Shown piece by piece: positions 1 to 24,500 of a DNA stretch of 46,646 nucleotides; the stretch's first letter is position 1; each line of letters starts with the position of its first letter. Source of the DNA: a virus; IMG/VR virus record IMGVR_UViG_3300017446_000004, positions 1 through 46,646 of that record. One strand, written 5' to 3'. The notes below the pieces were generated by a model. That model was given only the letters and a program-made list of their open reading frames with translations, did not search any database and had not been told where the DNA came from. The translations under genes were made by a program, and so were the position numbers.

Positions 1-123
1 ACGCGGTCGCCGAGGGCCTGTTCACGATCAAGGAGCACGACGGCCGGCTGATCGTGTGGCTGGATGACGTGGTGATCCCCGATCGCGGATGGTTCGGGTT
101 CACCAAGCAAGGCGAGTTGCGCT
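1..123. repeat. Terminal overlap copy 1, identical to 46524-46646 (circular closure or terminal redundancy of the contig)
   Basis: Read directly. The window begins acgcggtcgccgagggcctgttcacgatcaagg. The same string restarts at 46524 and runs to the last base. Confidence 0.95.
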
Positions 124-4941: not shown

Positions 4942-5299
4942 CGTTGCGCATTTCCTTTTCAGTCAGCACCCGACCAGCCCCAGGCGGCGGCGGGAAGCGC
5001 GGGACATAGCGGGTCATCCCGCCCGGCGCGCGACACGACCAGCAATTCAGAACGTCGGGCGCGGAGTTGAGAATTTCCTCACGCGCGCCGCATGGGCAGG
5101 CGAGGCACACCGTATGTCCCTTCGGATTGGAAGGGACCTCAACCGCCGTGATTGGCGCGGGCGCATATAGCTTCTGTATATTATCAGGCGCGATTGCAGA
5201 TTTGCGCTTGCGCGGGGGCGGCGCGGCCGAGGGCAGTGCGTCGCCGAATAGATCAGCCACGGCCCCCGCACCAGCCTCCACACTCACTGTCGGCGGCAT
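4931..5299 (-). CDS. Zinc-ribbon-like small protein (start uncertain: ATG 5299 or GTG 5260)
   Basis: HTVCLACPCG...(17 aa)...NCWSCRAPG gives CxxC...CxxC. There is a basic PPPRKRKS patch. It is the last gene of the minus-strand cassette. Confidence 0.55.
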   Translation of the reverse strand: MPPTVSVEAGAGAVADLFGDALPSAAPPPRKRKSAIAPDNIQKLYAPAPITAVEVPSNPKGHTVCLACPCGAREEILNSAPDVLNCWSCRAPGGMTRYVPRFPPPPGAGRVLTEKEMRNGRG

Positions 5300-6104
5300 C
5301 GTCTTCCACGTCGCTCATAGGCAGAACTGGATTGTTTTCGACATGATCCCGCAAGTCCGCAACGCTCATATAGCCGAATGAAAAACGACGCTCAGCCTCA
5401 TGGCGGGCCCACCAGTCTAACCCCTCGGGGTTGACCCGAGCGCGAGCAATGCGGCTTTTCTCGCTGACAAACGGGCAATGATCACAATTCCCGGTTCCTC
5501 TAGGCAGCATCAAATCAAAAGGCTGTTGCGTCCAGTATTTCAAAACGTCCTGCTTACGCACACCAGCAGATGCCAACGGAAAACCGAACCTCCGCCCTTC
5601 ATTTAATGCCTTTCTAGGCATTTCATAAACGCGATCATATTCGTCGGCTCTGAAACCAATTGTTTCCTGATAATCCCCTGACGAAAATCCTAGCGTTTCC
5701 ATAAAATCATGCATGACGCCGACTTTACAATGTTGCGTGCACCACCTCCCGCGAAGGGTAGAGAACAACGATTGTTTGCGTTCTATGAGCCTAGACAATG
5801 GCTCTCCATTTCGGCTTGCGCTGTTGTATCCGACTTCCTCAAATCGGCCTGCCGCGCCGACACGACGTAAGTCGGTGACAAACTCGAGCCAACGAACTCG
5901 AACGCCCCAACGGGTCGCGCATTCGTGAACGAAGCGGAGCGTTTCCTCGCGCTCCTTACCCGTGTTCGCAAAACAGACGTGTACGTCGTCGGGCAGCGTG
6001 CCCCCGTGCGCGTCAAGGGTCTGTTTGAGCATATACGCCGACGTTCGCCCTCCCGAAAACGAGATGAGCGCAGGGCCTTCGATGAAATAGGGATTGCCTG
6101 CCAC
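5253..6104 (-). CDS. PAPS reductase / PP-loop ATP-pyrophosphatase family protein
   Basis: PP-loop ISFSGGRTS near the N-terminus. C-terminal Cys motif TGNCDHCPF and terminal CGGWCGG. GTG start at 6104. The gene is conspicuously AT-richer than the rest of the genome. Confidence 0.8.
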   Translation of the reverse strand: MAGNPYFIEGPALISFSGGRTSAYMLKQTLDAHGGTLPDDVHVCFANTGKEREETLRFVHECATRWGVRVRWLEFVTDLRRVGAAGRFEEVGYNSASRNGEPLSRLIERKQSLFSTLRGRWCTQHCKVGVMHDFMETLGFSSGDYQETIGFRADEYDRVYEMPRKALNEGRRFGFPLASAGVRKQDVLKYWTQQPFDLMLPRGTGNCDHCPFVSEKSRIARARVNPEGLDWWARHEAERRFSFGYMSVADLRDHVENNPVLPMSDVEDDAADSECGGWCGGRG

Positions 6105-6106
6105 GA

Positions 6107-6205
6107 TCAGCCCTCGCTCTCAGGCCATATGGTTTCAGCCCAGGCGATCGCCCAGACCGCCGCGCCGAGCAGCGCGACGACGGCCACAGCGCCAATCCAG
6201 ATCAT
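6107..6205 (-). CDS. 32-aa membrane micro-protein (MIWIGAVAVVALLGAAVWAIAWAETIWPESEG)
   Basis: ATGA overlap with the upstream gene and a single hydrophobic helix. Translated by hand; below the track cutoff. Confidence 0.55.
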   Translation of the reverse strand: MIWIGAVAVVALLGAAVWAIAWAETIWPESEG

Positions 6206-6363
6206 TGGTATTCGGTCGCGAGCAGGATCAGGATGGCGACGCCAGCAGCCGCGAGGGCCAAGAGGCTCAAGACCATCTGGCCGAAGCGACCAAGCACAAA
6301 ACGGCGATCGATCCAGAAAACGACAGCGATCGCGACGGCGCAGAGAATGAAGGCAAGAAGCAT
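6202..6363 (-). CDS. 53-aa two-helix membrane protein (MLLAFILCAVAIAVVFWIDRRFVLGRFGQMVLSLLALAAAGVAILILLATEYQ)
   Basis: SD aagga precedes the ATG at 6363. Two hydrophobic helices. Translated by hand. Confidence 0.6.
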   Translation of the reverse strand: MLLAFILCAVAIAVVFWIDRRFVLGRFGQMVLSLLALAAAGVAILILLATEYQ

Positions 6364-6384
6364 GGGGGCGGTTCCTTGTGTCGT

Positions 6385-6534
6385 TTAGCGCAGGAGATTG
6401 CGCAGGAGGCGGCAGGCGTCGTTGCTGATCACCTCGGCAAGCCGCTTGATCGCCTCGCGTTCCTCGGCGGTCTGCGCAACGCTTTGCGTCTGGCGGATCG
6501 CCTCGCGGATCTGATCCTCGGGCGTGCGGATCAT
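6385..6534 (-). CDS. 49-aa hypothetical protein (MIRTPEDQIREAIRQTQSVAQTAEEREAIKRLAEV...)
   Basis: ATGA overlap with the stop of the upstream gene at 6531-6534. It is the in-frame tail of track ORF 6385..6780. Confidence 0.55.
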   Translation of the reverse strand: MIRTPEDQIREAIRQTQSVAQTAEEREAIKRLAEVISNDACRLLRNLLR

Positions 6535-6701
6535 CGGAACACCAGCCCGAGCGCGACGCACGCGCCGAACGCGGCGAGGGGGATGGCCAGCCCGAGGGAG
6601 AACGCTACGGCGACCACCTTGACCGGAGCGGCGAGGATCACGCCGAGCGGCGTTCTGCGCTCGGTCGTGACGGGCGGGCGGTTTCGATAATCCCGGTTCA
6701 C
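6531..6701 (-). CDS. 56-aa membrane protein (…LGVILAAPVKVVAVAFSLGLAIPLAAFGACVALGLVFR)
   Basis: GTGA overlap (GTG 6701-6699, upstream stop 6700-6698). The C-terminal half is hydrophobic. Confidence 0.5.
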   Translation of the reverse strand: MNRDYRNRPPVTTERRTPLGVILAAPVKVVAVAFSLGLAIPLAAFGACVALGLVFR

Positions 6702-6976
6702 AACGCGCGCTGCCGAAAATAGAGCGAGCACGCCAGCTTGAGGCCATCCGCGTTCGGGCCCTTGTAGGCGATGATCGCATCCGCCGCGGTCTGGTCGTCG
6801 CGGGTCAGCGTGTAGCGGTACGCGATCCGGCAAACGTTCGTCCCACTCATTTCGACGAACACGCGGTCGCGCTCGGTCTGGGCAGTGCTGACGAGCGTCG
6901 CATAATTGGCGATCGCGGCGTCAAGGTCGGGCATCGGGGCGGCTGCGCTGGCGAGCGCGAGGGCGGCGAGGATCAT
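6698..6976 (-). CDS. 92-aa exported protein
   Basis: N-terminal signal-like MILAALALASAAAP. ATGA overlap with the upstream gene. Confidence 0.65.
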   Translation of the reverse strand: MILAALALASAAAPMPDLDAAIANYATLVSTAQTERDRVFVEMSGTNVCRIAYRYTLTRDDQTAADAIIAYKGPNADGLKLACSLYFRQRAL

Positions 6977-7149
6977 CGTTTAGCCTTTCTCGGGTTGAGG
7001 TCGATTTCGTGGGGTGCGCCCTTGGCGTCGGCGCGGGCGGCTTCCTGGGCGGCGGCGATCGACGGATGCGGCATGTTGCCCCACTGCCCCGCGCGCGACA
7101 GGTTGATCCGGTCGATCGCCGGGAATGTCTGGATCGTGTAGCGGATCAC
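6973..7149 (-). CDS. 58-aa hypothetical protein
   Basis: GTGA overlap with the upstream 51-aa ORF (GTG 7149-7147, stop 7148-7146). In frame with track ORF 6973..7185. Confidence 0.5.
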   Translation of the reverse strand: MIRYTIQTFPAIDRINLSRAGQWGNMPHPSIAAAQEAARADAKGAPHEIDLNPRKAKR

Positions 7150-7301
7150 TTGCCGACCTGCTCGAGCAATGCGGCGGTCTGGCACATGCCTGCGGCGATC
7201 GCGTGCTCGCGGCGGGCCTCGTCAACCATGCCCGCGCCGCGCAGGGCGTGCGCCCGGTTGCAGTGCTTGGCGGCGGCTTGGCGAAGTTGAAAGCTCGACA
7301 T
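7146..7301 (-). CDS. 51-aa hypothetical protein (MSSFQLRQAAAKHCNRAHALRGAGMVDEARREHAIAAGMCQTAALLEQVGK)
   Basis: SD gagg lies 6 nt upstream of the ATG at 7301. High GC3. Translated by hand. Confidence 0.55.
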   Translation of the reverse strand: MSSFQLRQAAAKHCNRAHALRGAGMVDEARREHAIAAGMCQTAALLEQVGK

Positions 7302-8818: not shown

Positions 8819-9187
8819 ATGGGTCGCACTACCAACGGACTGATCAAGAGCCGCAACGCCGTCGCTGCCATCGCAGGAATGCGGCTGATCACCGAGGGCG
8901 CAGTCGATGGCGCTTGCGCGCTGGCGGTTGACGCAACGAAGAACATCATCGGCGTTTCGTCCGAACTGGACACGATCGCAGGCGAACGCGTCAGCGTGAT
9001 CATGGTCGGCAACATTTGCCCGGTCGTCTATGGCGGAACCGTCACTCGCGGCGACGCGCTCACCGCCGACGCTCAGGGCCGCGCGATCACCACCACCACG
9101 ACCGGCGCGCGCATCGGCGGCACGGCTGAAATCTCGGGCGTGCTCGGCGATATCGGCTCGATCGTCGTCAATCCCGGCATCCTCTAA
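8819..9187 (+). CDS. DUF2190-family head decoration-like protein
   Basis: 122 aa with a GDALTADAQGRA...GGTAEISGVLGDIGSIVVN pattern. SD gggag. It sits immediately before the capsid gene, as is usual for this family. Confidence 0.7.
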   Translation: MGRTTNGLIKSRNAVAAIAGMRLITEGAVDGACALAVDATKNIIGVSSELDTIAGERVSVIMVGNICPVVYGGTVTRGDALTADAQGRAITTTTTGARIGGTAEISGVLGDIGSIVVNPGIL

Positions 9188-9223
9188 ACCCCGCACCCCT
9201 CAACTTTATAAGGACCTGACACG

Positions 9224-10219
9224 ATGGCCCGCGCCAATTTCCCACTGATCTCCGTGCCGCTCTCGGGCGTCGTGATCGACTATGCCGGCATCAACCGCGA
9301 CACGCGCGGCTACATCGCCGACCGCGTTGCACCCGTCAAAAAGGTGACTTCGCAGCTTTTCCGTTGGTATTCGTCGCGCATCAACGAGGCATTCACCCTC
9401 TATGATACGCAGATCGACCGCCTCGGGCAGGCAAACGAAATGCTGCACAACTGGGACCTGCAGACGGACGTGACCAAGGATTACGCGATCCGCGAGCCGG
9501 TCGCGTATGCCGACGAAAAGGAAGCGAACGCCCAGGGCATTCCGTTCTCGTTGCGCGCTGCGGCCGCAAAGAACGTGGTCGATCAGATCCAGCTCAACCG
9601 CGAACTGCGCGTCGCCACCCTGACCAACTCGGCGTCGTCGTACCTCGCGGCCTATGTCGTGGACAAGACGGCCGCCAAGTGGTCGGATTTCGCGAACAGC
9701 GACCCGGTTGCCGACGTTCGCGACGCGCAGTCGAAGATGCTCGTTCGTCCAAACGTGGGCGTTTGCTCGCGCCGGGTGGCGGACATTCTCGAGCGGCATC
9801 CGAAGATCGCCGCGGCGCTCGGCGGTTCGCTGCAGAGCGGTCAGTATAACGACATGGCGCGCGTCGCTCGGCTGTTCAATCTGCGCGAGATCATCGTCGG
9901 TGACACGCTTTACCAGACCAGCAAGCCGGGGCAGACGCTCGCAACCGGCAACATCTGGGCCGACAATTTCGCCATGCACTTCCAGGGCGCGACCACGGCG
10001 GACACGACCGTTTCGGCGAACAACAACAACAGCCGGTCGCCCGACTTCCTGACCACGTTCCAGTGGGGCGATTGGGTATCGTCGGAAAAGGAGTTCCTGC
10101 CCGGCGACATGGGCCTCCTGGGCGGGATCAAGGTCCTCGCCGGGCAGAGCGTCCTCGAGCGGCAGGTCGCACCCTATGCGGGCTTCCTGTTCCAGAACGT
10201 CACCAACCCCGCCGCGTAA
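9224..10219 (+). CDS. Major capsid protein
   Basis: 331 aa with SD aagga, in the scaffold-decoration-capsid order. The sequence style (YADEKEANAQGIPFSL...QIQLNRELRVATL) is typical of capsid proteins paired with DUF2190. Confidence 0.8.
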   Translation: MARANFPLISVPLSGVVIDYAGINRDTRGYIADRVAPVKKVTSQLFRWYSSRINEAFTLYDTQIDRLGQANEMLHNWDLQTDVTKDYAIREPVAYADEKEANAQGIPFSLRAAAAKNVVDQIQLNRELRVATLTNSASSYLAAYVVDKTAAKWSDFANSDPVADVRDAQSKMLVRPNVGVCSRRVADILERHPKIAAALGGSLQSGQYNDMARVARLFNLREIIVGDTLYQTSKPGQTLATGNIWADNFAMHFQGATTADTTVSANNNNSRSPDFLTTFQWGDWVSSEKEFLPGDMGLLGGIKVLAGQSVLERQVAPYAGFLFQNVTNPAA

Positions 10220-10865: not shown

Positions 10866-11306
10866 ATGAACCGCACGCTTACCATCGCCGCCGCCGCGCT
10901 CGCTTGCATGGCGATGCCTGTCGCGGCGCAGACCGTCACGATACAAGCCCCCACGACCGTTGACCCGCTCGGGCGTCCGGTCGGCATCGGTAAGACGTTC
11001 ATTTACCGCGCCGATGGTTCGATCGTTGACCCGTCAAGCGTGACCGCTGCCGCATCGATCGCAACGGGACAGATCAGCACCGGCACCACCGCCACGCTGA
11101 TCGTTGCCACGCGCGCGGCGCGAAAGCGCGTGATCCTCACGGTCGGCGCGGCCAATAGCTGCGCGTTCGGCCCGGCTGGCGTCACCCTGACCACGGGGTT
11201 CCCATTGCAGCCCGCCGCGGGCGCGACCCTGACGGTCGATAGCGCCGCCGCCCTCTATGCCGTATGTTCGGCGACGACCACGATTAGCTACATGGAGCAC
11301 TTTTGA
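10866..11306 (+). CDS. 146-aa exported protein
   Basis: Signal peptide MNRTLTIAAAALACMAMPVAA/QT. The mature part is Thr/Ala-rich and beta-like. Confidence 0.7.
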   Translation: MNRTLTIAAAALACMAMPVAAQTVTIQAPTTVDPLGRPVGIGKTFIYRADGSIVDPSSVTAAASIATGQISTGTTATLIVATRAARKRVILTVGAANSCAFGPAGVTLTTGFPLQPAAGATLTVDSAAALYAVCSATTTISYMEHF

Positions 11307-11307
11307 C

Positions 11308-11817
11308 ATGCGCCAAGCCCTCGCCGTCCTCGCGCTGCTCACCGCAGCCCCCGCCGCCGCCCAGGTCAGCTACCCCGTGGGCCCGCCGCCCGATATGTCG
11401 ATCTATGCCAAGGCGAGCGACATTCCCCAGCCTGCCACATCGCTCCCGCCTATGGAGGTGGTCGCGGGCGCGGTCGGGTCGCCGGGCACGTATCGGCCCG
11501 CCAATGCGATCGCGCCTCGCATCACGCGCGCCACAACGGTGACGTTGATCTCGGGCGGGACATTCTCGGGCACGTGGTCAACCCCCCTGCCCGCCCCGCC
11601 GATCCTCGTTCTCACGCCAATTGCAACGGGATCGGCCGCGGTAACGTGCGAACTGACATCGGCCCCGACCGTCTCGAACTTTGCGGGTCGTTGCTGGTCG
11701 TCGCAAAACACCTCGATCACGACCGCCGCGCTCACGCTCGGGCTGACCGTGCTGCCCAACATCGCCAGCCCGGCCGGGACTCAGGTGCAGGTGCTCGCGG
11801 TCCCGCCGACGCAATAG
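11308..11817 (+). CDS. 169-aa exported protein
   Basis: The internal ATG of track ORF 11257..11817 gives signal peptide MRQALAVLALLTAAPAAA/QV. It starts 2 nt after the previous stop. Confidence 0.65.
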   Translation: MRQALAVLALLTAAPAAAQVSYPVGPPPDMSIYAKASDIPQPATSLPPMEVVAGAVGSPGTYRPANAIAPRITRATTVTLISGGTFSGTWSTPLPAPPILVLTPIATGSAAVTCELTSAPTVSNFAGRCWSSQNTSITTAALTLGLTVLPNIASPAGTQVQVLAVPPTQ

Positions 11818-11849: not shown

Positions 11850-12356
11850 ATGGCCTATCTGACAACCGACGAATACGTCACCCGCTTTGGGGCTCGGGAA
11901 ACCGGGCTCCTGACCAATACCGACGCGGCGCAGGGGGCGGGGCAGGCGTCCTATGACGCCGCCAAGGTCGAGACGGCGCTACAGGATGCGACAGACGAGA
12001 TCGAGGGCTATGTCTCGCGCCGCTATGCCGTCCCCCTCGAATCGCCGCCCACGATCGTCAAGGGATGGGTCGCGGCGATCGCGCGCCTCAAGCTCGCCGA
12101 GGCAACGGGACGCGTGGCCGACGCGATCCAGGCGGCAGCGGATCGCGTTACCCGCCAGCTTGAGCAACTCGCCGCGTCCAAGCTCGACTTGCCGATCGAG
12201 CCGGGACAGCCCGCCTTGCCCGAGAACGACGCGGGCTCGCCGATGACCTCGAACGATCGCGATTGCCCGACGTTCACCCGCTGCGCGATGGACGATTTCA
12301 CCTCGCCGTTCACAATGGGCGGATGCGATAGCGTGCCGAACTGGCGGCGTGGCTGA
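11850..12356 (+). CDS. Head-tail adaptor, DUF1320 / Mu gp36-like
   Basis: MAYLTTDEYVTRFG...ALQDATDEIEGYVSRRYAVPL matches the DUF1320 N-terminal pattern. SD aggaag. Confidence 0.75.
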   Translation: MAYLTTDEYVTRFGARETGLLTNTDAAQGAGQASYDAAKVETALQDATDEIEGYVSRRYAVPLESPPTIVKGWVAAIARLKLAEATGRVADAIQAAADRVTRQLEQLAASKLDLPIEPGQPALPENDAGSPMTSNDRDCPTFTRCAMDDFTSPFTMGGCDSVPNWRRG

Positions 12357-12940
12357 TGGCCCGCGGCGGGTTTTCCACGACGATCGAATATGAAGGCGGC
12401 GGGCTAAATGAAGCCCTGGCCGGGCTGCGCAACTTTCGCCGCCTGGGGAACGATCTCACGCCGTTCATGGAAGACGCCGCGGCGATCCTGCTCTCGTCAA
12501 CCTTGCTGCGGTTCAACTCGGGCCGCGGCCCCAACGATATCCCGTGGGCACCGACCAAGCGCCAGAATACCAGCGCGGTCGGCAAGCGCGGCCCGAACAA
12601 AGCCGGCATTCTGGTCGATACGGGCGATCTGCGCGCCTCGATCCGCGCCGAGACGACGAACAATAGCGTTGAGGTCGGTTCGGACGGCCTGACCGATCCG
12701 GTCAAGGCGATCGCAAACCAATTCGGCTCGCATCGGCAGGCCGTCGTGCTGCGGCACAAGCGCACGATCACGATGGCTTTTGGCGCGCCTCTCGCCGAGC
12801 CTGTTACCGTGGAGGTCCGCCCGCATGGTCGGATCACGAACCTCCCGGCACGCCCCTTTATCGGGATCGACGCGCGCGACGAGACGAATATCAAAGAGGC
12901 TTGGCAGGCCCGCATCATTCGCACCTTTGAGAGCGCCTAG
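12356..12940 (+). CDS. Virion morphogenesis protein, Mu gpG / P2 gpS-like
   Basis: ILVDTGDLRASI...VEVGSD...LPARPFIGI are hallmark stretches of this family. TGATG junction with the upstream gene. Confidence 0.75.
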   Translation: MARGGFSTTIEYEGGGLNEALAGLRNFRRLGNDLTPFMEDAAAILLSSTLLRFNSGRGPNDIPWAPTKRQNTSAVGKRGPNKAGILVDTGDLRASIRAETTNNSVEVGSDGLTDPVKAIANQFGSHRQAVVLRHKRTITMAFGAPLAEPVTVEVRPHGRITNLPARPFIGIDARDETNIKEAWQARIIRTFESA

Positions 12941-12993
12941 CGGAGCGGGGCCACGCGCGCTATGAGGGCGTGGACAACAGCGGAGCCCGCCCC

Positions 12994-13239
12994 ATGTGCA
13001 TCAAGTTTCTGACCCCCACTCGACACGGCGCGGTAACGTTCCCGCCGAACACCCCCTTAGCGTTCGAGAACCCGCTCGCCGAGCCGTATTTTAAGGGCGC
13101 AGGCTTTGCCGAGGACTGCTCGGACGAACCCGTCATGACCTACGCGGACGCCGAGGTCGTGATCGATCCGGCCACCGTGTTCGGCACGGGCCCGAATGTC
13201 GGCCAACTGGTCGTTGCTGACCTTGTGCAGGAGGGTTGA
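12994..13239 (+). CDS. 81-aa hypothetical protein
   Basis: SD ggag lies 8 nt before the ATG at 12994, inside track ORF 12970..13239. Confidence 0.6.
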   Translation: MCIKFLTPTRHGAVTFPPNTPLAFENPLAEPYFKGAGFAEDCSDEPVMTYADAEVVIDPATVFGTGPNVGQLVVADLVQEG

Positions 13240-13242
13240 TCA

Positions 13243-13617
13243 ATGGCCAAATACATGAACCCGAACGTCATCGATCTGGCGCTCAACGACATCAAGACCA
13301 ACGCCAACAAGCTTGTGGTCTGCGCGCAACAGCCGACGACGTTTGCCGAGGCGAACGTCACCTATGCGTTGGGCTCGGTCGCGATGACGAGCGCCGACTA
13401 TACGCTCGCTAACGGCGACGTTTCCGGCCGCAAGGTGACGGTTGCCGCGAAGGCCGCGGTTCCCGTCACGGTCAGTGGCACCGCCACGCACGTCGCGCTG
13501 ATCGATACCGTCAATTCGGTCTTGAAGCTGGTCACGACGACGACCTCCACGGCGGTCGCGGCAGCCGGAACCGTTGACGTGGGCTCGTTCAAAGACGAGA
13601 TCCAGGCCCCCGCCTGA
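13243..13617 (+). CDS. 124-aa hypothetical virion-module protein
   Basis: SD gaggg, high GC3, located in the connector/tail block. Confidence 0.7.
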   Translation: MAKYMNPNVIDLALNDIKTNANKLVVCAQQPTTFAEANVTYALGSVAMTSADYTLANGDVSGRKVTVAAKAAVPVTVSGTATHVALIDTVNSVLKLVTTTTSTAVAAAGTVDVGSFKDEIQAPA

Positions 13618-15326
13618 TGGTAAGCCGTCCGTTTACGCTCGACGATGCGTCAACCCGCCCGCAGTCGTGGGTTGATGCTCAGGACGCGGCAACAATCGCG
13701 CTTGACGCAAACGGACGGCTTGCCTCCTGGGCCTTCAAGGGCACCCAGGCGGGGCAGTTCACGCCGGTATCCGCAAGCGTTGCCCCGCTTTACACCCCCG
13801 CCGATTTCGCCGGCGCTTTCCCTGCATTCAAATTCACCGCCACCCGCGTTGACCTGATAACCGCGGCGTTTACGGGCCCTTCGCAGCCCTGCACCGTCGT
13901 TTACGTCTGGCAAGAGCCATCGGGCGGGCAAAACCCGTATTGCGTCGTCGCTGATCACCGCAGTACGGGCGGCAGCGATGGCGGCCGCGTCACGGTGTTC
14001 AACGCTTACGCAGCGCAAAACACCATCGCGATCGTGCCGAGCAACGCCTCTGGCCAGCGCCTGAATCTCACGGGCAACGCGTTCAACAAAGTCAACGTGA
14101 TGGTCGTTGAATATAACGGCCCATATTCGCGGATCTATTTGAACGGCGTCACTACCCAACCCAAAAATCTACTTCTGTCGTCGGTAATCTTTGGCGGCGG
14201 CATGACGATCGGCGGCAAATTCAACGACGCATACACCGCGTTCAACGGGCTATTTGGCGAGCAGGCTGTCTATCCGGTCATCTTTAACGATGCGGATTGG
14301 GACAAGATCACTCAAGGCACGTCATGGAAATGGGGGCAGCAAGCCTCCATCCCTGACGGCGCGACCTACAAGGCTGCGCGGCCGATGGTTTCGGACGGTA
14401 CGCCCGATCCGGCTACGCCTGCGCCGCTCGCCCACGCACACGCTATTTCGTCGCCAACCGCGTCGTTCCGCACCCCTGCCGCAGTCGATCCCCTCGCGCA
14501 CTCACACGCGGCCACCTCGCCGACGTTGACGGCTGGCACGACGATGGCGGCGCAGGACATGGCGCAGGCGCACGCGGCCACCTCGCCGGGCGTTTCGTCC
14601 AAGCAGGCGATCGCGGCGAACTCGCTACAGCACGCGCACACCGAGACGCCGACCAGCCTGCTCTATCAAACCACCGTCGCGGCGCTGTCATCGATCCAGG
14701 CGCAGGCGATGACGGCTGCGGGGCTTGGCGCTGGCGGGGCGCTGGTCGTCAATAGCGCTGCGCAGGCTCACGCGGCCGCTGCAGCGGCGTTGACGGCTCG
14801 GCGGGCCCTTGTGTCGCCAAGCAGCCTAACGCAGCCTCACGCGCTTGCTGCGGCGGCTTTCACGCACGTTTCGCCGCCCGACAACATGACGCCAGACCCG
14901 CTCGACTTCGGCGTTGACCTCGGCAGCATCCGCGACCGCGTGATCCTGCTCAAGTATTTCCTGTCCGTGACGGACGTGCTCGACGCGAGCGAAGCGCTAG
15001 ACGAGACGCTCCCGGCCGCGCCGCCTGCCGCGTTCGTAGGCGTGGCGAGCGAGCGCGCCGAGCCGAACAAGACGATTGGCGGACATTCGCAGCGGGTGCG
15101 GGTTGAGATCGCCATCCTCTTCGCCGAAAGCACGTCGCGATTTGACCGCGAGGCCCGCGATCAACTCGACCTGACCCGCCGCGCGCTGATCCGGCAACTG
15201 GTCGCGTGGACGCCGAAGAATGCCGGCGAGGGGCTCGAATATTCGCGGTATCGGGTGGTCAAGATCGGCGACGGGCTGGCCTGGGGCGAGGTGACGTTCA
15301 CGACCTCTTATCGGCTGACCATCTAG
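13617..15326 (+). CDS. Fusion protein: N-terminal LamG/concanavalin-like lectin domain, HxH repeat stalk, C-terminal neck/tail-terminator-like domain (Mu gp37 / DUF3168-style)
   Basis: N-terminus: SWVDAQDAATIALDANGRLASWAFKG...PAFKF...VVEYNG...IYLNG is LamG-like. The middle has seven repeats of about 22 aa. The C-terminus (LPAAPPAAFVGVASERAEP...RVRVEIAILFAE...LEYSRYRVVKIGDGLAWGEVTFTTSY) has the pattern of small neck proteins and sits just upstream of the tube gene. Confidence 0.6.
   Translation: MVSRPFTLDDASTRPQSWVDAQDAATIALDANGRLASWAFKGTQAGQFTPVSASVAPLYTPADFAGAFPAFKFTATRVDLITAAFTGPSQPCTVVYVWQEPSGGQNPYCVVADHRSTGGSDGGRVTVFNAYAAQNTIAIVPSNASGQRLNLTGNAFNKVNVMVVEYNGPYSRIYLNGVTTQPKNLLLSSVIFGGGMTIGGKFNDAYTAFNGLFGEQAVYPVIFNDADWDKITQGTSWKWGQQASIPDGATYKAARPMVSDGTPDPATPAPLAHAHAISSPTASFRTPAAVDPLAHSHAATSPTLTAGTTMAAQDMAQAHAATSPGVSSKQAIAANSLQHAHTETPTSLLYQTTVAALSSIQAQAMTAAGLGAGGALVVNSAAQAHAAAAAALTARRALVSPSSLTQPHALAAAAFTHVSPPDNMTPDPLDFGVDLGSIRDRVILLKYFLSVTDVLDASEALDETLPAAPPAAFVGVASERAEPNKTIGGHSQRVRVEIAILFAESTSRFDREARDQLDLTRRALIRQLVAWTPKNAGEGLEYSRYRVVKIGDGLAWGEVTFTTSYRLTI
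14410..14875 (+). repeat. Intragenic degenerate tandem repeat, about 66 nt (22 aa), seven units, core L-A-H-A/S-H-A-x-S-P
   Basis: Units start near 14424, 14491, 14559, 14623, 14690, 14754 and 14826. Peptides: PLAHAHAISSPT, PLAHSHAATSPT, MAQAHAATSPG, LQHAHTETPT, IQAQAMTAAG, AAQAHAAAAA, LTQPHALAAA. Confidence 0.8.
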
Positions 15327-15407
15327 CGCGGGCGTTCAGGCTTACGGGTGGAGGGGGGCGCAAGTATTCTGCGCCCTCAACTCTCGAACGCTATTGGAGC
15401 CCCGATC

Positions 15408-15791
15408 ATGGACGCAACCGCCGCAGACCCCAACGCAACCGCCGCGCCGGCCATGACCAAGGAGGGGGTGGCGCTCGCCGGGAAATACCCGCTCAACTTG
15501 CGGCTGCGCGCCGAGGCGCTGGCGACGGATGGCAAGGCGAAAGATCCTGACGGCCTCGCCTCGGATGAACTGATCGCCTCCACCAAGGATCGCCTCGATC
15601 GCGAGCGGGCCGAAGCCGAGCGGCTCGCGGCGCGTGACGCCAAGGAGCATCCGCCCGTGTCGGAATCCATGAAGCGCGAGGATCTGGTCGCGCTCGCCGC
15701 CAAGGAAGGCGCGCCGCACGACGCAGACGCGACCAAGCCGCAGATCATCGAAGCAATCGAGGCCACCCGCCTCGCGAACAAGGAAGCCTAA
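15408..15791 (+). CDS. 127-aa protein with a C-terminal HeH/Rho-N-like motif
   Basis: SD ggag lies 8 nt before the ATG at 15408 (internal to track ORF 15348..15791). MKREDLVALAAKEGAPHDADATKPQIIEAIEA. Confidence 0.65.
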   Translation: MDATAADPNATAAPAMTKEGVALAGKYPLNLRLRAEALATDGKAKDPDGLASDELIASTKDRLDRERAEAERLAARDAKEHPPVSESMKREDLVALAAKEGAPHDADATKPQIIEAIEATRLANKEA

Positions 15792-15794
15792 GAC

Positions 15795-16745
15795 ATGGCA
15801 GGCACGAACAAGGATTGGTTCACCAAGGTCATTCTCGGGAAGCTCGAGACGACCGAAGGCACCGACGCCGCCCCGACCAGCGCCCTTAACGCGCTCAAGG
15901 TGCTCAATTTCGCAACGACGTTCCTCAACGCCGAGCAGAAGACCCGCGCGATCGAGACGCCGTATTACGGCGCAACGCCGTTCGCGCTCACCTCGCTTAC
16001 CCGGTCCTACACCTATGACATGGAGATCCACGGCGGCGGCGTGACGGCCGGCACGACCGTTCCCCCGTGGATGATCCCGATGCAGGCTTGCGGGTTCGCG
16101 GCCCCTGTCGTCGGCGCAAACAACGTGACGATTGCGCCCGTGACGAACTCCCCCAAATCGTTGACGCAATATGCGTACATTGACGATTTGCTGACCAAGA
16201 TCCTGGGCGCGCGCGGCTCGGTGGGGTTCAAGATCGAGGATGACGAATACCCGATTTTCAATTTCGATTTTCTCGGCGTCCCCGATGCGGCGATCGCATC
16301 GCAGGCCGTACCGACCGCGCCGACGATTACGGGCTACGTTGACCCCGTTCTGTCCACGACCGCCAACACCACGTTTTCTATGGGCGGATTTTCGCCGGCG
16401 CTGCGCCGCTTCAGTATGGCGGCTAACGTTGATCGACAGTTCCGATCGCTGATCGGCCCCGCCGACCGCATCAACATGCGCGGCCGTGCGTGGAGCGGCG
16501 ATGTCGTGATCGAGGTTCCCGACCTGACGGCGAAGAACTATTTTACGCAGATTCCCGCGGGCACGACGATGGCGGCAACGGTGGTGCAGGGCGTGACGCC
16601 GGGCAATATCGTCCAGATCGACACGCCGCGGTTGCTGATCTCGGGCGCGGCGCTGTCCGAGGAACAGGGCAAGGCGATGGTCACGCTTTCGGTGACGGCG
16701 CTGCCGAACACGGGTAACGACGAGATCCTGTTCACCTCGAAATAA
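15795..16745 (+). CDS. Major tail (tube) protein
   Basis: 316 aa with SD aaggaag. It is followed by a strong terminator, then the chaperone pair and the tape measure. The call is by synteny. Confidence 0.7.
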   Translation: MAGTNKDWFTKVILGKLETTEGTDAAPTSALNALKVLNFATTFLNAEQKTRAIETPYYGATPFALTSLTRSYTYDMEIHGGGVTAGTTVPPWMIPMQACGFAAPVVGANNVTIAPVTNSPKSLTQYAYIDDLLTKILGARGSVGFKIEDDEYPIFNFDFLGVPDAAIASQAVPTAPTITGYVDPVLSTTANTTFSMGGFSPALRRFSMAANVDRQFRSLIGPADRINMRGRAWSGDVVIEVPDLTAKNYFTQIPAGTTMAATVVQGVTPGNIVQIDTPRLLISGAALSEEQGKAMVTLSVTALPNTGNDEILFTSK

Positions 16746-16828: not shown

Positions 16829-17308
16829 ATGTTCGATCTGCTCGACCGCCCGCTATTTTACCTCCCCGTCAAATGGCCTGGGGTGGTCCCCGGCGACGAC
16901 GGCGGCGCGACGCTCACCGAACACATGGTCGAGATACAGGTCGAGTTGCTTGATCGCGAAGAGTTCAACGCGTGGATGATCGAGGGCAGCAAAGACGTTG
17001 AGGACATGACTGCCGAGGAACGGCAGGCGCACGAACTGACCACGATCAAGGGCGTTGCGAAGGGGTGGCGCAAGATCAAGGCGAACGGTCGCAACCCGGA
17101 TTTTAGCGACGAGAATATTGCAAAGCTTCTGGGGTTCCCCGGTTTCGTCAGCGCATTCGGCGAAGCGTACATGAACGCATGGAACGCAAAAATCGAGATC
17201 CGGTCGGGAAACTCCGAAGGCTCGCCCGCCAATGGGCAGGCGGACGGGCCTACCGGCGCGACGAGCAAGGCCGCGACGCCCAGGAAACCGCGCACGGCGA
17301 AGAACTGA
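16829..17308 (+). CDS. Tail assembly chaperone (lambda gpG analogue)
   Basis: 159 aa, positioned between the tube gene and the tape measure. It contains the slippery heptamer in frame. Confidence 0.75.
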   Translation: MFDLLDRPLFYLPVKWPGVVPGDDGGATLTEHMVEIQVELLDREEFNAWMIEGSKDVEDMTAEERQAHELTTIKGVAKGWRKIKANGRNPDFSDENIAKLLGFPGFVSAFGEAYMNAWNAKIEIRSGNSEGSPANGQADGPTGATSKAATPRKPRTAKN

Positions 17309-17613
17309 CACCGCTAGAAAAGGAGTGCGCGCAGTGGGGCATAGATCCCGCCGCGTTCAACATGGGGGACCGCGAGGAAAGCAAATCTGCGGTTCCCTTG
17401 TGGCCTGATATGCGCGTGCCGTTCGCGCTGTTCTGCGATGCTCCTTGGAACTGGGTGTCTCTCGGGATGGGTGGCGTAGTGCGAACGAATATCAGCCGGA
17501 TCGAGTTGGAAGCCTCCGCGCGATCGCTCGGCGTGACGATGACGCCGGACATTTTTACCGACGTTCGCCTGATGGAAAACGCCGCGATCGAATACTGGTC
17601 GGCCAAAAGGTGA
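16829..17613 (+). CDS. Tail assembly chaperone G-T type fusion made by a -1 frameshift at 17206-17212. The extension is DUF1799-like.
   Basis: The -1 frame segment (LTPLEKECAQWGIDPAAF...VPLWPDMRVPFALFCDAPWNWVSLGMGG...RLMENAAIEY) matches the DUF1799 tail chaperone pattern and ends just before the tape measure. Confidence 0.6.
17206..17212 (+). promoter_or_regulatory. Programmed -1 frameshift slippery heptamer G GGA AAC
   Basis: The zero-frame codons are tcG GGA AAC. The -1 frame stays open from here to 17613. Confidence 0.65.
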
Positions 17614-21552: not shown

Positions 21553-24500
21553 ATGGCTTTCGTCGTACTTTTGCAGGCCCAGCCCCGGTTGCCGTCCAGT
21601 GGCGCGCTCACCACCGTTCGCGTGGCCGGGGGCGGGTCGCGGGCCTATGATCAACTCGGCTTTACCGATTGGCGCGCAGGCATCGCGACCCGGCCTCGGT
21701 TCACCACGGCGATCGATTTCGACAAAGGCGGGCCGACCGGGGGCGCGATCCCGCAAACGACAGGCATTCGGATCGCGCCATCGGACAAAGCCTATTTTTC
21801 GGCGCTGTCCAACGTCGTTTGGCCTGGCGCTCGCGTCTCGATCGCGACCGGCGACGACGAAGGGCTCGCCATATCCTATCCGCTTTTGTTGCAGGGGACG
21901 GTTGCGGCGTCCGTCACCTCGGGCGCAGCGATCACGTTGACGATCGCCGACCTGTCGGCAGACCTCAACAAGCTCGCCGTGCCGAACACGTTCGCCGGCA
22001 CCGGGGGGCTTGAGGGCGTGGACGCCGCGACAGGGCGCGTAAAGCGCCGCACCTTCGGCGTGGTCTTCAACGTGGAAGGCCGAGTCCTCGACAACGCGAA
22101 CAACGTCTATGAGTTCGGCGATCCGAATTTCGGCGTTTCGTCGTTCGATATGCTCAAGGATAAGGGGCAGGCCGGGCCTATGACCGTGCTGGCGTGGCAA
22201 GGGAGCGCCCTGGCGACGCTCAACGCGCTCAAGGCGGCGACGGTGGCCAGTGGGGGCGGCGTGGTCGCTCCATCGATCTCCTGCGCGAAATGGTGGACGG
22301 TTCCGGCCGGCCCTCTCACGGCGGATATGACGTACAATCCCGGCAGCGGCACACAGCCCGCGCAGCTTGCCGCGACGTTCGCCGCTCAGTTCTCAACCGA
22401 CATGACGTTCGCGAACATCGCCGAGGCCGCGGGATGGATCAATTACGCGTCGGGCGTCCACATTGACGACGCGAACGAAACCGCCGCATCCGTGCTTGAT
22501 CGCCTGCTCTTGCCGGTCTTTATCGTTTGGGTGCTGCGCGCCGATGGCGGGCTCGTCTTTCGCCGGGTCAGCTTCGACAATCCGATTGCCACCCTGCGCG
22601 CCGAAACGGTCAACCGCGAGGTGGTCTTCCCCGCACTCAAGACGCGAAAGCTTGGATTTCAGCGAAACTACCGCATCCATTCGGAAAGCGAGATTTCGGC
22701 CACGCTGCTCGCTGCCAAAGATATCGCCTACGCGGATGGCACGCCGATCGAGACGCTCAAGCCTGCCGAGGCTGGCGCGAACGTCACAGAGGCGCGCACG
22801 GCCGCGGCGATCAGCGGGCAGGGCACCTTTGCGACAATCAGCAGCGCGGCCTATGGATCTCAATACCTGACCGGGTTCGGCGCACTGTCGCCGCTCTCTA
22901 ACCTGACGTTTGGCTCGTCGTTCCTGCTCGAGCAAGCTGGCGGCGTGTCGGCCACGCTTGCCGCGTTCAAGACGATCCAGGGCATTGCCGCTTCGATCAC
23001 CGGCCAAGGCGGGTTCGCGACGATCAATAGCGCCGCTTATGGGTCGTCGTTCCTTACCGGATTTGGTCAACTCAGCCCGCTCAACAATCTGTTTTTCGGC
23101 GGCGCGTATCTGCTCGAGCAATCTGGCGGATCGCCCGCGACCTTGGCGGCATTCAAGACCATCCAGGGAATCGCGGCGTCGATCACCGGGCAAGGCGCAT
23201 TCGCCACGCAAAATAGCGCGGGCTATGGCTCGGCGCTTCTGACCGGGTTCGGGCAATTGAGCCCGCTCAATTCGCTCGCCTTCGGAAGCCCCTACCTGCT
23301 CGAGCAGTCTGGCGGCGCATCGGCAACCCTGGCGCAGTTCAAAACCTCGCTTGGCAGCGCGGGCGGGTTCCTTGGTCAAACGGATTGGGCAACGTTCACC
23401 GTGCCCACTGCGCGGTTGACGCGGGAGGACGCGAACCTCGTTTATGATGGAGGCCTCACGCTACGCGCGGCACGTTGGTCGCTAGGCAGCGGTTGGAATT
23501 GGGTCCTCGGCGCGGCTGGCGACGGCCCTTATTTGCAGCGCGGCACGGGTGGCCAAAGCATAAGCTACAGCGACTTTTTCGCGTTCGCCGCGGGGTCGGG
23601 ATACTTGCAATCTGAAATGTTCGCCTCGGGCATGACTGCCGGCACGTTCGCGATGGATCTGGAATTTTACAACGGCGCTACCTTGCTCACTGGCGGCTCA
23701 ACGGGTGCGACATCTGCGGCAAACGGGACCGGATGGAGCGAGCGCGGTTCAACGTTTACCGCCCCCGCGAACACCACCCGCGCCCGCGTTCGGGTTTATA
23801 CAGCGAGCGATGCGCAGAACACGAACGCCGCAATCCGGCGTATCAAAGTCAGTAGCGCGTCAACGCGCACGAAATACAGTGACGAGGCGACGGTCGGCGC
23901 GGCATACGACGACGGAACCTATATGAACATGCTCAAGCCCGAGGAAGCGGGCGGGAACCGGACAGAGGCGCGCATCGCATCGGCGATCAGCGGGCAAACC
24001 GATTGGGCGACCTATACCGGATTGACCACAACGGTTGTGGCTGGTCGGACTCAACGCCTTCAAGGCGATGGATACATCGAGTCCGCCACGATCTATAAAA
24101 CCGGAGCAGGTTTTCTTAGCGCGTTCTACCCAGCCGAAGGCGGGGCAAATAAGACCGAGACGCGGACGGCCGCAGCGATCACCGGGCAAAGCGCTTTCGC
24201 CACATATACGGGCGTCCCTCCTGGCGCACTGATCGGCGGGCCGACCAACCTCGTTCCCGATGGCGGGTTTCGGTTTGGCGGGCAGGGCTGGTCGGCATCG
24301 GCGATCGGATTTGGCCTCAACGGTACGGACTCGACGGGCTACGCCATTTGCAACGCGACAGGGACGAACGTATCAAGCTCGCCTCAATTCCCGGCCACCG
24401 CTGGCGCACAATATTGCTTGCAAGCTGAAATGTCATACGCTGCGGGCGGCGGCAATCAGTGCGCCGACGTGGTGTTCCTTAACGCTCAAGGGCAACCGCT

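What the first reader, a model, noticed from the sequence alone, without database searches (positions are those of the whole stretch)
13617..15326. LamG lectin - repeat stalk - neck protein fusion: a candidate collar or whisker displayed at the head-tail junction
Seen: one uninterrupted 569-aa ORF combines three parts:
- an N-terminal LamG/concanavalin-like domain of about 250 aa (WVDAQDAATIALDANGRLASW..., VVEYNG..IYLNG);
- a repeat region of about 155 aa;
- a C-terminal domain of about 145 aa whose pattern (LPAAPPAAFVGV...RVRVEIAILFAE...YRVVKIGDGLAWGEVTFTTSY) and position, just before the tube gene, fit the small neck/tail-terminator class (Mu gp37 / DUF3168-like).

Inference: a ring-forming neck protein carrying an outward-facing lectin on a stalk would form a carbohydrate-binding collar. 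Functional analogues would be the T4 whiskers or the lactococcal neck passage structure, but built as a single polypeptide. An internal ATG at NMTPDPLDF (about 14886) could also yield a stalk-less neck protein.
Basis: partly seen in the sequence, partly recalled or inferred. Interest (0 to 1): 0.7.

Follow-up and report, generated by a model that had tools for sequence, protein, structure and literature searches.

The report
Neck whisker fused to tail terminator
In this 46.5-kb phage the only copy of the tail-terminator gene, which builds the ring that caps the tail under the head, is fused in frame to an imported "whisker" gene with a lectin-like tip and a 22-residue-repeat rope, so the terminator ring probably replaces the usual separate collar ring as the whisker's anchor.

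Summary
ORF 13617-15326 (569 aa) is real and coding throughout. It has three parts:
- a LamG-like N-domain of about 260 aa;
- about seven 22-residue repeats;
- a full-length tail-terminator domain (Pfam PF23840, E=1.4e-14; the AF2 model matches the Mu, T5, lambda and GTA terminators).

All 18 close homologues of the C-domain are stand-alone proteins of 144-149 aa. Their Met1 aligns exactly on the internal ATG at 14886. In related phages the terminator gene directly follows the tail-completion gene. The window therefore carries a ~1.9-kb inserted cassette (81-aa gene, 124-aa gene, LamG-repeat gene), and the last cassette gene runs in frame into the terminator.

In other phages the same LamG-repeat protein is always followed by, or fused to, an Ig-like Gp77 domain. 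Gp77 is the collar or fiber-tail adaptor of phage GP4. The 124-aa protein is a probable remote relative of the GP4 fiber I "bead" gp80.

Best reading: this is a GP4/Bas63-type collar-whisker system. It has lost its collar and is anchored covalently to the hexameric terminator. The repeats are probably a "rope" that carries 124-aa beads, not a free-standing stalk. Glycan binding is not tested. I rate it a new variant of a known kind, of moderate to high interest.

The parts
12356..12940 (+). Tail completion / Neck1 gene (Phage_tail_S). It forms the left flank of the insertion; in relatives it overlaps the start of the terminator gene.
   Evidence: PF05069 E=1.3e-17 and phrog_26. In L004-L009 it is followed, with an 8-11 nt overlap, by the 146-147-aa terminator gene.
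12941..14885 (+). About 1.9 kb that is absent from related phages: an inserted whisker cassette.
   Evidence: DNA and protein alignments with L005, L006 and L008 lose homology after the tail_S stop and regain it at ATG 14886.
12994..13239 (+). Cassette gene 1: an 81-aa protein of unknown role that regularly precedes the 124-aa gene.
   Evidence: 50% identical to the 80-aa gene in L001 and L088. jackhmmer finds relatives directly upstream of p124 homologues in more than 15 loci. No Pfam or PHROG hit.
13243..13617 (+). Cassette gene 2: a 124-aa protein, a probable relative of the GP4 fiber I / whisker 'bead' protein gp80.
   Evidence: 71% identical to the L001 gene. The family is found in 80 held loci, with an invariant GDVSGRKVTV motif. 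Family members hit phrog_240, the PHROG that GP4 gp80 hits at 7e-33. hhalign against the gp80 family gives E=1.3e-3 over 115 columns. A Gp77 gene lies next to it in 28 of 80 loci.
13617..15326 (+). The fused ORF: 569 aa comprising a LamG-like tip, a 22-aa-repeat rope and a tail terminator.
13617..14399 (+). N-terminal ConA-like/LamG (Laminin_G_3-type) domain, aa 1-261.
   Evidence: 42% identical to P0002 over aa 1-260. A profile search finds 415 relatives. Laminin_G_3 reaches the Pfam cut-off in P0023 and P0024, and 5 of 15 family members match. The best PDB sequence hit is the N-terminal region of pappalysin-2, a LamG-like module by my recollection (E=0.097).
14400..14885 (+). Repeat region, aa ~262-423: about 7 units of 22 residues (for example PLAHAHAISSPTASFRTPAAVD, MAQAHAATSPGVSSKQAIAANS). 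Proposed to be the rope.
   Evidence: Periodicity z=8.3 at lag 22. The same 21-22-aa period occurs in all homologues and 20 aa in GP4 gp79. Repeats with the same Q-A-H motif occur in proteins directly downstream of p124 genes in L043, L046 and L052.
14886..14888 (+). Internal ATG, the ancestral start codon of the terminator gene.
   Evidence: It aligns with Met1 of 18 of 18 stand-alone homologues. No SD-like purine run lies upstream (gcccgacaacATG).
14886..15326 (+). Tail-terminator domain, aa 424-569. It is the only terminator copy in the genome.
   Evidence: PF23840 E=1.4e-14. It is 54-77% identical to the stand-alone terminators. The AF2 model has pLDDT 82.9. Foldseek matches Mu, T5 p142, DT57C, R4C, lambda gpU and RcGTA terminators. 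A six-frame scan finds no other copy and no Gp77.
15795..16745 (+). Tail tube gene, given as right-hand context. No sheath gene lies between terminator and tube, so a siphophage-type tail is inferred.
   Evidence: PF18906 Phage_tube_2. It is 62-78% identical in the relatives.

Best explanation
A mobile 'whisker' cassette was inserted between the tail-completion gene and the tail-terminator gene of a ~46.5-kb siphophage. The cassette holds an 81-aa gene, a 124-aa gp80-like gene, and a gene for a LamG-like tip followed by 22-residue repeats.

In its usual form this cassette ends with a small Ig-like Gp77 protein. Gp77 forms a collar ring around the connector and holds the whisker. Here Gp77 and the last few residues of the repeat protein are missing. 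The repeat protein instead reads in frame into the terminator gene, exactly at that gene's original start codon.

The product is a terminator subunit with a 423-residue N-terminal extension. When six terminator subunits cap the tail tube, six extensions would leave the outer face of the ring at the head-tail junction. Each extension is proposed to act as a 'rope'. Its ~7 repeats would each bind a copy of the 124-aa protein, like beads on a string as described for phage Bas63. This would give a stiff whisker tipped by the LamG-like domain. The tip plausibly makes weak, reversible contacts with host surface polysaccharide.

Shown here: the fusion, the insertion, the terminator identity, the periodic repeats, and the link between this protein family and Gp77.
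Inferred: the bead-on-rope assembly, the outward display, the copy number, the glycan binding, and that most or all terminator is made as the fusion.
For: 1. **Fusion and terminator.** The ORF is continuous and coding throughout. PF23840 is matched at 54.7 bits. The AF2 model of the C-domain has pLDDT 82.9 and matches solved tail terminators.
2. **Insertion.** All 18 homologues of the C-domain are stand-alone proteins of 144-149 aa whose Met1 aligns on ATG 14886. In L004-L009 tail_S directly abuts the terminator gene.
3. **Only copy.** The window holds no second terminator and no Gp77. The essential terminator must therefore come from this ORF.
4. **Cassette identity.** The same 80-aa, 124-aa and LamG-repeat trio occurs between portal and protease in L001, L088 and L089. 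There, and after the LamG-repeat gene of L087, a 91-94-aa PF23148 Gp77 gene follows. In P0023, P0045, P0061 and P0149 the Gp77 domain is fused C-terminally.
5. **What Gp77 is.** It is the 93-aa Ig-like fiber-tail adaptor ring of GP4; Bas63 and Sf14 carry a comparable Ig-like collar. Whisker or fiber I dimers wrap a rope, which is a separate protein in GP4 and an N-terminal extension of the collar protein in Bas63 (PMC11445570; PMC12609058, read). That polarity, rope N-terminal to the ring domain, is the same as here.
6. **The 124-aa protein and gp80.** GP4 gp80 matches PF23140 and phrog_240. Members of the 124-aa family hit phrog_240 (best 7.4e-9; L015 at 2.6e-8). hhalign of the two family profiles gives E=1.3e-3, end to end. 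A Gp77 gene lies beside the 124-aa gene in 28 of 80 loci.
7. **Rope.** The period is 22 aa here (z=8.3), 21-22 aa in homologues and 20 aa in GP4 gp79. Proteins directly after 124-aa genes in L043, L046 and L052 carry long 22-aa repeats with the same Q-A-H motif.
8. **Outward display.** The terminator fold has its helices, including the N-terminal helix, at the periphery of the ring (PMC10276861). The first ~10 residues of the domain are modelled with low confidence.
9. **Genome state.** The window ends overlap by 124 nt, which indicates a complete circular assembly.
Against: - No structure could be obtained for the N-domain plus repeats: AF2 gave pLDDT 31.8 with a 2-sequence alignment.
- The link between the 124-aa protein and gp80 is remote. 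The window protein itself hits no PHROG or Pfam family. A profile search of PDB sequences gave nothing. hhalign probability is only 18.6%.
- I infer that GP4's rope is gp79; this is not verified. gp79 is not among the PDB sequences.
- Laminin_G_3 is below threshold in the window protein. The superfamily also includes enzymes and protein-binding modules.
- A random in-frame junction has a 1-in-3 chance, so the fusion could be a tolerated accident.
- All records of this phage may come from one sample.
- Nothing shows that the protein is in virions.
Confidence: 0.6

Rival explanations
1. The fusion is a self-contained single-polypeptide collar. The repeat region folds on its own into a stalk, and the 81-aa and 124-aa genes are unrelated neighbours, for example chaperones or head decorations.
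For: The ORF alone contains a tip, a spacer and an anchor. The window's 124-aa protein has no direct hit to gp80 families. AF2 predicted a helix in aa 381-397, though at very low confidence.
Against: The 124-aa gene travels with the repeat protein in L001, L088 and L089 and sits next to Gp77 genes in 28 of 80 loci. It is also linked to the gp80 family through phrog_240 and hhalign. The repeats are Ala/Ser/Thr/Pro-rich 22-mers, and AF2 predicted no confident fold for them. In Bas63 the equivalent region is an extended rope that needs whisker subunits (PMC12609058).
Confidence: 0.18
2. The functional terminator is mainly the short 146-aa form, started at the internal ATG 14886. The long fusion is a minor product, giving mixed rings with one or a few whiskers, or a tolerated by-product of a recent deletion that removed Gp77 and the stop codon.
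For: The ancestral start codon is retained. The analogous Gp77 fusion P0023 keeps a good SD (AGAGGGG) before its internal Met, and the L046 rope-phrog_810 fusion also keeps its Met. This suggests that two products may be common in this family.
Against: In the window nothing SD-like precedes the ATG (gcccgacaacATG). Most other genes here have GGAG or AGGA 6-12 nt upstream or are stop-start coupled. No stop codon is available for reinitiation, and no promoter-like site lies in 12800-15900.
Confidence: 0.17
3. Artefact. A chimeric assembly or an indel error joined two separate genes.
For: The fusion is known from one phage only: the protein cluster has a single member. The different records could derive from the same sample.
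Against: Two different assemblers give identical sequence across the junction. GC3 stays high and the 22-aa repeat pattern continues in frame up to the junction. The +1 frame that would end at ATGA is open for only 19 codons. The flanks are collinear with related phages.
Confidence: 0.03

Closest known systems
Collar-whisker / fiber I system of podophage GP4 (gp77 Ig-like adaptor ring, gp80 fiber I dimers on a 'rope') and of myophages Bas63 and Sf14 (Ig-like collar with N-terminal rope domain plus whisker dimers)
   Same: - The LamG-repeat protein family is encoded next to, or fused to, PF23148 Gp77.
- A gp80-like small protein is encoded just upstream.
- The periodic ~20-22-aa region lies N-terminal to the ring-forming domain, as in the Bas63 collar protein (PMC12609058).
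- The location is the head-tail junction.
   Different: - The window has no Gp77 collar; the ring domain is the hexameric tail terminator, giving an expected 6 whiskers rather than 12 or 5.
- A ~260-aa LamG-like domain caps the rope.
- The host phage is a siphophage with Mu-Gp36 and tail_S neck genes.
- The similarity of the bead protein to gp80 is remote.
Stand-alone tail terminator proteins (PF23840; structural class of lambda gpU, T5 p142, Mu terminator, RcGTA terminator)
   Same: The C-terminal 146 aa are 54-77% identical to stand-alone members and keep all invariant residues. They also share the fold and the gene position.
   Different: All 18 sequence homologues found are 144-149 aa. This one carries a 423-aa N-terminal extension and has lost the SD and overlap coupling to tail_S.
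Carbohydrate-binding decorations of lactococcal siphophages (neck passage structure, tail tube extensions, evolved Dit)
   Same: The concept is the same: auxiliary sugar-binding modules displayed on neck or tail of a siphophage (PMC6669499, listed and not read in detail).
   Different: No sequence relationship was found. Those modules are separate proteins or extensions of tube or Dit proteins, not of the terminator, and no rope-and-bead architecture is described for them, to my knowledge.
T4 whiskers (fibritin, wac) on the gp13/gp14 neck
   Same: Fibres radiating from the neck that assist host interaction or fibre assembly (my own knowledge).
   Different: Fibritin is a trimeric coiled coil attached non-covalently. 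Nothing here resembles a coiled coil, and the attachment is covalent to the terminator.

Membership tests
Tail terminator (Pfam PF23840; gpU/p142 structural class) | Sequence match to the family model above the curated cut-off, over the full length. | tested here: met
   54.7 bits against a cut-off of 27; aa 424-568 cover profile positions 1-146 of 150.
Tail terminator (Pfam PF23840; gpU/p142 structural class) | Alpha/beta fold with a beta-sheet core and peripheral helices that matches solved terminators. | tested here: met
   AF2 pLDDT 82.9 and pTM 0.74. Foldseek at E 1e-6 to 1e-3 matches Mu (9khy), T5 p142, DT57C, R4C, lambda gpU and RcGTA.
Tail terminator (Pfam PF23840; gpU/p142 structural class) | Gene located between the neck or tail-completion genes and the tube gene. 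| tested here: met
Tail terminator (Pfam PF23840; gpU/p142 structural class) | Forms a hexameric ring that caps the tube and docks the head. | not testable with these tools
   Needs multimer modelling or cryo-EM.
GP4/Bas63-type collar-whisker (fiber I) system | Ig-like Gp77 (PF23148) collar or adaptor ring protein. | tested here: not met
   No Gp77 in any frame of the window. It is present next to or fused with every other member of the LamG-repeat family examined.
GP4/Bas63-type collar-whisker (fiber I) system | Small gp80-type (PF23140 / phrog_240) bead or whisker protein. | tested here: inconclusive
   The window's 124-aa protein has no direct hit. Its family reaches phrog_240 (7.4e-9), and hhalign against the gp80 family gives E=1.3e-3 with probability 18.6%. 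Genomic linkage to Gp77 is strong, 28 of 80 loci.
GP4/Bas63-type collar-whisker (fiber I) system | Extended 'rope' polypeptide, N-terminal to or interlocked with the ring protein, on which the beads are threaded. | tested here: inconclusive
   A 22-aa periodic region lies N-terminal to the ring domain, and related repeats follow 124-aa genes elsewhere. Threading itself cannot be tested here, and AF2 of this region failed.
Concanavalin A-like / LamG (Pfam Laminin_G_3, PF13385) | Match to the family model above the curated cut-off. | tested here: not met
   The window protein scores 13.7 bits against 27.6, E=0.069. Homologues P0023 (27.8 bits) and P0024 (28.7 bits) pass, and 5 of 15 family members match at E<=0.01. 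Membership therefore rests on transitivity.
Concanavalin A-like / LamG (Pfam Laminin_G_3, PF13385) | Beta-sandwich jelly-roll fold. | tested here: inconclusive
   AF2 pLDDT is 31.8. DSSP shows mostly strands in aa 24-220, but the model is unusable.
Concanavalin A-like / LamG (Pfam Laminin_G_3, PF13385) | Carbohydrate binding. | not testable with these tools
   Needs a glycan array or a binding assay.

The most novel reading that the evidence does not exclude
The 22-residue 'rope' may be a portable tether that can be grafted onto any ring-forming neck protein. In this phage the essential tail terminator would then be made only as the rope fusion. Every virion would carry an obligatory crown of six LamG-tipped whiskers, each loaded with 124-aa beads, anchored covalently at the terminator.

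The in-frame run-on into the next gene, with its start codon retained, is seen with three partners: Gp77 in P0023, P0045, P0061 and P0149; an unknown phrog_810 protein in L046; and the terminator here. It could be a recurrent evolutionary route, and possibly a two-product expression strategy, for decorating phage necks.
Probability: 0.35. Interest if true: 0.7.

Novelty: new variant of a known kind. Interest (0 to 1): 0.58.

Why it matters
- **Interchangeable anchor.** Neck whiskers and collars have only recently been resolved (GP4, Sf14, Bas63), and their role in adsorption is still speculative. This locus suggests the anchor can be swapped: the same tip-rope-bead cassette can hang from a dedicated Ig-like collar or directly from the tail terminator, a conserved and essential ring.
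- **A genetic handle.** Because the whisker is fused to an essential gene, its function can be tested cleanly by deleting residues 1-423 while keeping the ATG at 14886.
- **Annotation.** Several widespread unannotated phage families gain a working annotation. These are the 124-aa family with the GDVSGRKVTV motif, the 81-aa family, and the proteins with a globular head followed by 22-aa Q-A-H repeats.
- **A candidate for GP4.** GP4 gp79 emerges as a candidate for that phage's rope protein.
- **Engineering.** The terminator N-terminus may be a permissive display site.

Tried and rejected
- **Whole-protein search for homologues.** Only 2 hits, probably because the Ala-rich repeats swamped the word index. 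The N-domain alone gave none with the word-indexed tool. The exhaustive profile search was needed.
- **tblastn of the ORF against isolate phages.** No match.
- **The search for related loci with the 124-aa and LamG alignments in IMG/VR.** The automatically chosen patterns found nothing. A hand-made degenerate pattern for GDVSGRKVTV found 62 viral and 13 genomic stretches, nearly all confirmed by tblastn.
- **AF2 of aa 1-423.** The alignment had 2 sequences and the model failed (pLDDT 31.8), so no fold search of the tip or rope was possible. MAFFT could not build a correct mixed alignment for a full-length prediction.
- **PDB sequence searches.** Profiles of the terminator family and the 124-aa family gave no hits. 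The LamG profile gave only pappalysin-2 at E=0.097. GP4 gp79 is not among the PDB sequences, so the identity of the GP4 rope could not be confirmed.
- **Hidden frameshift or overlapping stop at the ATGA junction.** Rejected, because the +1 frame is open for only 19 codons and the repeat pattern continues in frame 0.
- **Internal promoter.** No sigma-70-like site was found.
- **DNA tandem repeat as the origin of the protein repeats.** None was found.
- **Gp77 from L001 against isolate phages.** No match. The P0149 Gp77 domain matched 100 records.
Full report

Yes. An ATG-started ORF of 569 aa runs from 13617 to 15326 on the + strand. Its frame has no stop before 15324, while the other two frames have 21 and 12 stops. 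Third-position GC is 0.70-0.92 in every 150-nt block of the ORF frame, as in the neighbouring structural genes.

The identical gene occurs in an ENA MEGAHIT contig of 46,664 nt and in a Logan contig of run SRR6987777, and is also listed as held by JGI. The window ends overlap by 124 nt, so the sequence is a complete circular assembly of about 46.5 kb.

The gene order around the ORF is typical of a siphophage structural module:
- major capsid protein, 9224-10219;
- Mu-Gp36-like adaptor, 11850-12356;
- Phage_tail_S tail completion / Neck1, 12356-12940;
- an 81-aa gene;
- a 124-aa gene;
- the ORF;
- a 127/147-aa gene;
- tail tube, 15795-16745;
- chaperones and the tape-measure protein.

**2. The C-terminal part is a genuine, intact tail terminator.**

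Residues 424-568 match Pfam PF23840 (Phage_tail_terminator) end to end, at 54.7 bits against a cut-off of 27. An AF2 model built on 19 sequences has pLDDT 82.9 and pTM 0.74. Foldseek matches it to solved terminators or collar-terminators: phage Mu, diffocin, P74-26, DT57C and T5 p142, roseophage R4C, lambda gpU and RcGTA.

Eighteen sequence homologues (54-77% identical) are all stand-alone proteins of 144-149 aa. In the alignment their initiator Met falls exactly on the internal Met of the ORF, encoded by ATG 14886. A six-frame scan finds no other terminator in the window. The phage therefore depends on this ORF for an essential protein.

**3. The ORF is the product of an insertion.**

In three related phage genomes of 46.5-47.6 kb, capsid, adaptor, tail_S, terminator and tube are 51-78% identical to the window's. 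There the tail_S gene overlaps the terminator start by 8-11 nt. In the window, homology to the relatives stops at the tail_S stop codon (12940) and resumes at ATG 14886. The 1.9 kb in between holds three genes that the relatives lack over the stretches compared.

**4. The inserted genes are a mobile cassette that normally ends in a collar protein.**

The first search found only one homologue of the N-terminal part, P0002 (42% identity over aa 1-260). Its contig carries the same three genes in the same order, at 50%, 71% and 43% identity. They lie between portal and prohead protease and are followed by a 94-aa PF23148 Gp77 gene.

An exhaustive profile search of 1.84 billion representatives gave 415 relatives of the N-domain. 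The closest ones fall into two groups:
- P0021 and P0022 are immediately followed by a 91-94-aa Gp77 gene.
- P0023, P0045, P0061 and P0149 carry the Gp77 domain fused to their C-terminus.

None of the listed hits other than the window's own protein has a terminator domain. The window has no Gp77.

**5. What Gp77 tells us.**

PF23148 is named after gp77 of Ralstonia podophage GP4. It is a 93-aa Ig-like 'tail-fiber adapter' that forms a 15-mer ring around the head-to-tail adaptor and holds the fibers (PMC11445570).

The Bas63 cryo-EM paper describes a comparable assembly in myophages Bas63 and Sf14 (PMC12609058):
- Each collar protein sends out a long N-terminal 'rope'.
- Dimers of a small whisker protein sit on the rope 'such as beads on a string', and the rope completes the incomplete beta-sandwich of each bead.
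- In GP4 the rope is a separate protein that interlocks with the collar and carries five fiber I dimers.

**6. The other cassette parts fit that system.**

*Bead.* GP4 gp80 (140 aa) matches PF23140 'fiber I protein' and phrog_240, and is present as 10 chains in PDB 8JOU. The window's 124-aa protein belongs to a large unannotated family, found in 80 of the loci I hold, with an invariant GDVSGRKVTV motif. Three lines connect this family to gp80:
- Four of 54 members hit phrog_240 (best 7.4e-9; L015 at 2.6e-8).
- A profile-profile alignment with a gp80 family alignment is collinear over 115 columns, with E=1.3e-3 and a shared TH-x-A-x-x-D motif.
- In 28 of 80 loci a Gp77 gene lies next to the 124-aa gene, usually immediately downstream.

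I call this probable remote homology, not proof. The window protein itself hits nothing directly.

*Rope.* Residues ~262-423 of the ORF are periodic with a 22-residue unit (z=8.3 at lag 22, 7.4 at lag 44), giving about 7 units. The same 21-22-residue period is found in every homologue. A 20-residue period is found in GP4 gp79, the gene directly after gp80. In L043, L046 and L052 the protein directly after the 124-aa gene has a ~200-aa head followed by long, nearly perfect 22-aa repeats (ADAxQAHxxDNVxLTQHxVLxV). These share the Q-A-H motif of the window's repeats.

*81-aa gene.* Relatives of this gene also recur directly upstream of the 124-aa family. Its role is unknown.

**7. The N-terminal domain.**

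The window protein gives only a sub-threshold Laminin_G_3 hit (E=0.069, aa 95-224). Homologues P0023 and P0024 reach the Pfam cut-off over the same region. Five of 15 family members match at E<=0.01. The best PDB sequence hit of the family profile is the N-terminal region of pappalysin-2, which I recall to be a LamG-like module, at E=0.097.

The domain is therefore very probably a ConA-like/LamG jelly roll. The AF2 model failed (pLDDT 31.8), and sugar binding is inference only.

**8. How it most likely works.**

The terminator fold places its two main helices, including the N-terminal helix, at the periphery of the hexamer (R4C paper, PMC10276861). The first ~10 residues of the domain are modelled with low confidence. 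An N-terminal extension should therefore leave the ring on its outside, and this is the same rope-then-ring polarity as in the Bas63 collar protein.

I propose that six fusion subunits cap the tube. Each rope would bind up to about seven 124-aa subunits, or three to four dimers. The LamG-like domains at the tips would contact host surface polysaccharide reversibly; Bas63 is LPS-dependent, and such an interaction has been speculated for GP4 fiber I.

The short C-terminal motif that ends the free rope proteins is RFATLTIGK in P0002 and P0022, and RIVFARG in P0021. It is absent here. This is consistent with covalent attachment replacing a docking strand, which is my inference.

**9. One product or two?**

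The ancestral ATG is retained, but it is preceded by gcccgacaac, with nothing SD-like. Most genes in the window have GGAG or AGGA 6-12 nt upstream or are coupled by stop-start overlap. The relatives have SD-like runs in the tail_S 3' end that were lost with the insertion. There is no stop for reinitiation and no promoter-like site.

By contrast, the Gp77 fusion P0023 keeps AGAGGGG before its internal Met. I therefore think the window's terminator is made mostly or only as the fusion. A minor short form cannot be excluded.

**10. Rivals.**
- A self-supporting single-polypeptide stalk is less likely, given the conserved linkage with the 124-aa gene and the composition of the repeats.
- A tolerated accident, with the short form doing the work, remains possible. 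An in-frame junction has a 1-in-3 chance.
- An assembly artefact is unlikely.

**11. Novelty.**

Collar-whisker systems and ropes fused to the collar are known. I found no description of a rope fused to a tail terminator in two literature searches. None of the 18 terminator homologues carries one, and none of the 150 listed LamG-family hits has a terminator domain.

A further in-frame rope fusion, to a phrog_810 protein of unknown function, turned up in L046. Grafting of ropes onto neighbouring genes may therefore be recurrent. I rate the finding a new variant of a known kind.

Noticed in passing
window 1-124 and 46523-46646: The first 100+ bases recur at 46523, so the ends overlap by 124 nt. 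The window is a circularly closed assembly of a complete ~46.5-kb phage genome.
   Followed up: partly
window 10866-11306 and 11308-11817: Two genes lie between the capsid and the adaptor. Both encode proteins with N-terminal signal-peptide-like sequences (MNRTLTIAAAALACMAMPVAAQ..., MRQALAVLALLTAAPAAAQ...). This slot is variable in the relatives: Lipase_GDSL_2 plus DUF1996 in L004/L005, and other genes in L006 and L008.
   Followed up: no
window 21553-25224: The 1223-aa protein after the tape measure contains long internal repeats of about 62 aa (ISGQG.FATI.SAAYGS..LTGFG.LSPL...), seen by eye in the translation. It is probably the host-specificity or fibre protein.
   Followed up: no
L092 (Ralstonia phage GP4, MH638294) 8948-9925, minus strand: GP4 gp79 (325 aa) lies directly after the fiber I gene gp80. 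It has a ~20-aa periodic sequence (z=5.8) and ends in a PIERQLFV motif that resembles the C-termini of the LamG-rope proteins. It is not among the PDB sequences. It is a candidate for the GP4 'rope' protein.
   Followed up: partly
L046 (IMGVR_UViG_3300010166_000006), reverse-complement coordinates 5173-7173: A 666-aa ORF directly after a 124-aa-family gene has three parts: a ~230-aa head, 22-aa Q-A-H repeats, and an in-frame full-length phrog_810 domain of unknown function (E=3.6e-18) that keeps its own Met. This is a second example of a rope running into the next gene.
   Followed up: partly
L095 (Mycobacterium phage Faith1) 2093-5128: Faith1 gp22 (Gp77-like), gp23 (gp80-like) and gp24 are adjacent. 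gp24 is 762 aa, with a globular head, a Gly-rich region and ~20-aa repeats. The collar, bead and rope trio therefore also seems to exist in cluster L mycobacteriophages, where the genes are annotated as hypothetical or minor tail proteins.
   Followed up: partly
window 16829-17308 and 17179-17613: Two ORFs upstream of the tape-measure gene overlap. The first gives weak tail-assembly-chaperone hits, and the second contains a gene with a weak DUF1799 hit on record. This is the usual place for a programmed frameshift in tail chaperones.
   Followed up: no
L085 (GCA_026540855.1 contig JALNUP010000017.1) 7312-9863: In this prophage the LamG-rope-Gp77 fusion P0023 sits after the lysis genes and before an integrase. 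It is preceded by a 137-aa protein (phrog_644) instead of a 124-aa family member, so the cassette has variants with other small partner proteins.
   Followed up: partly
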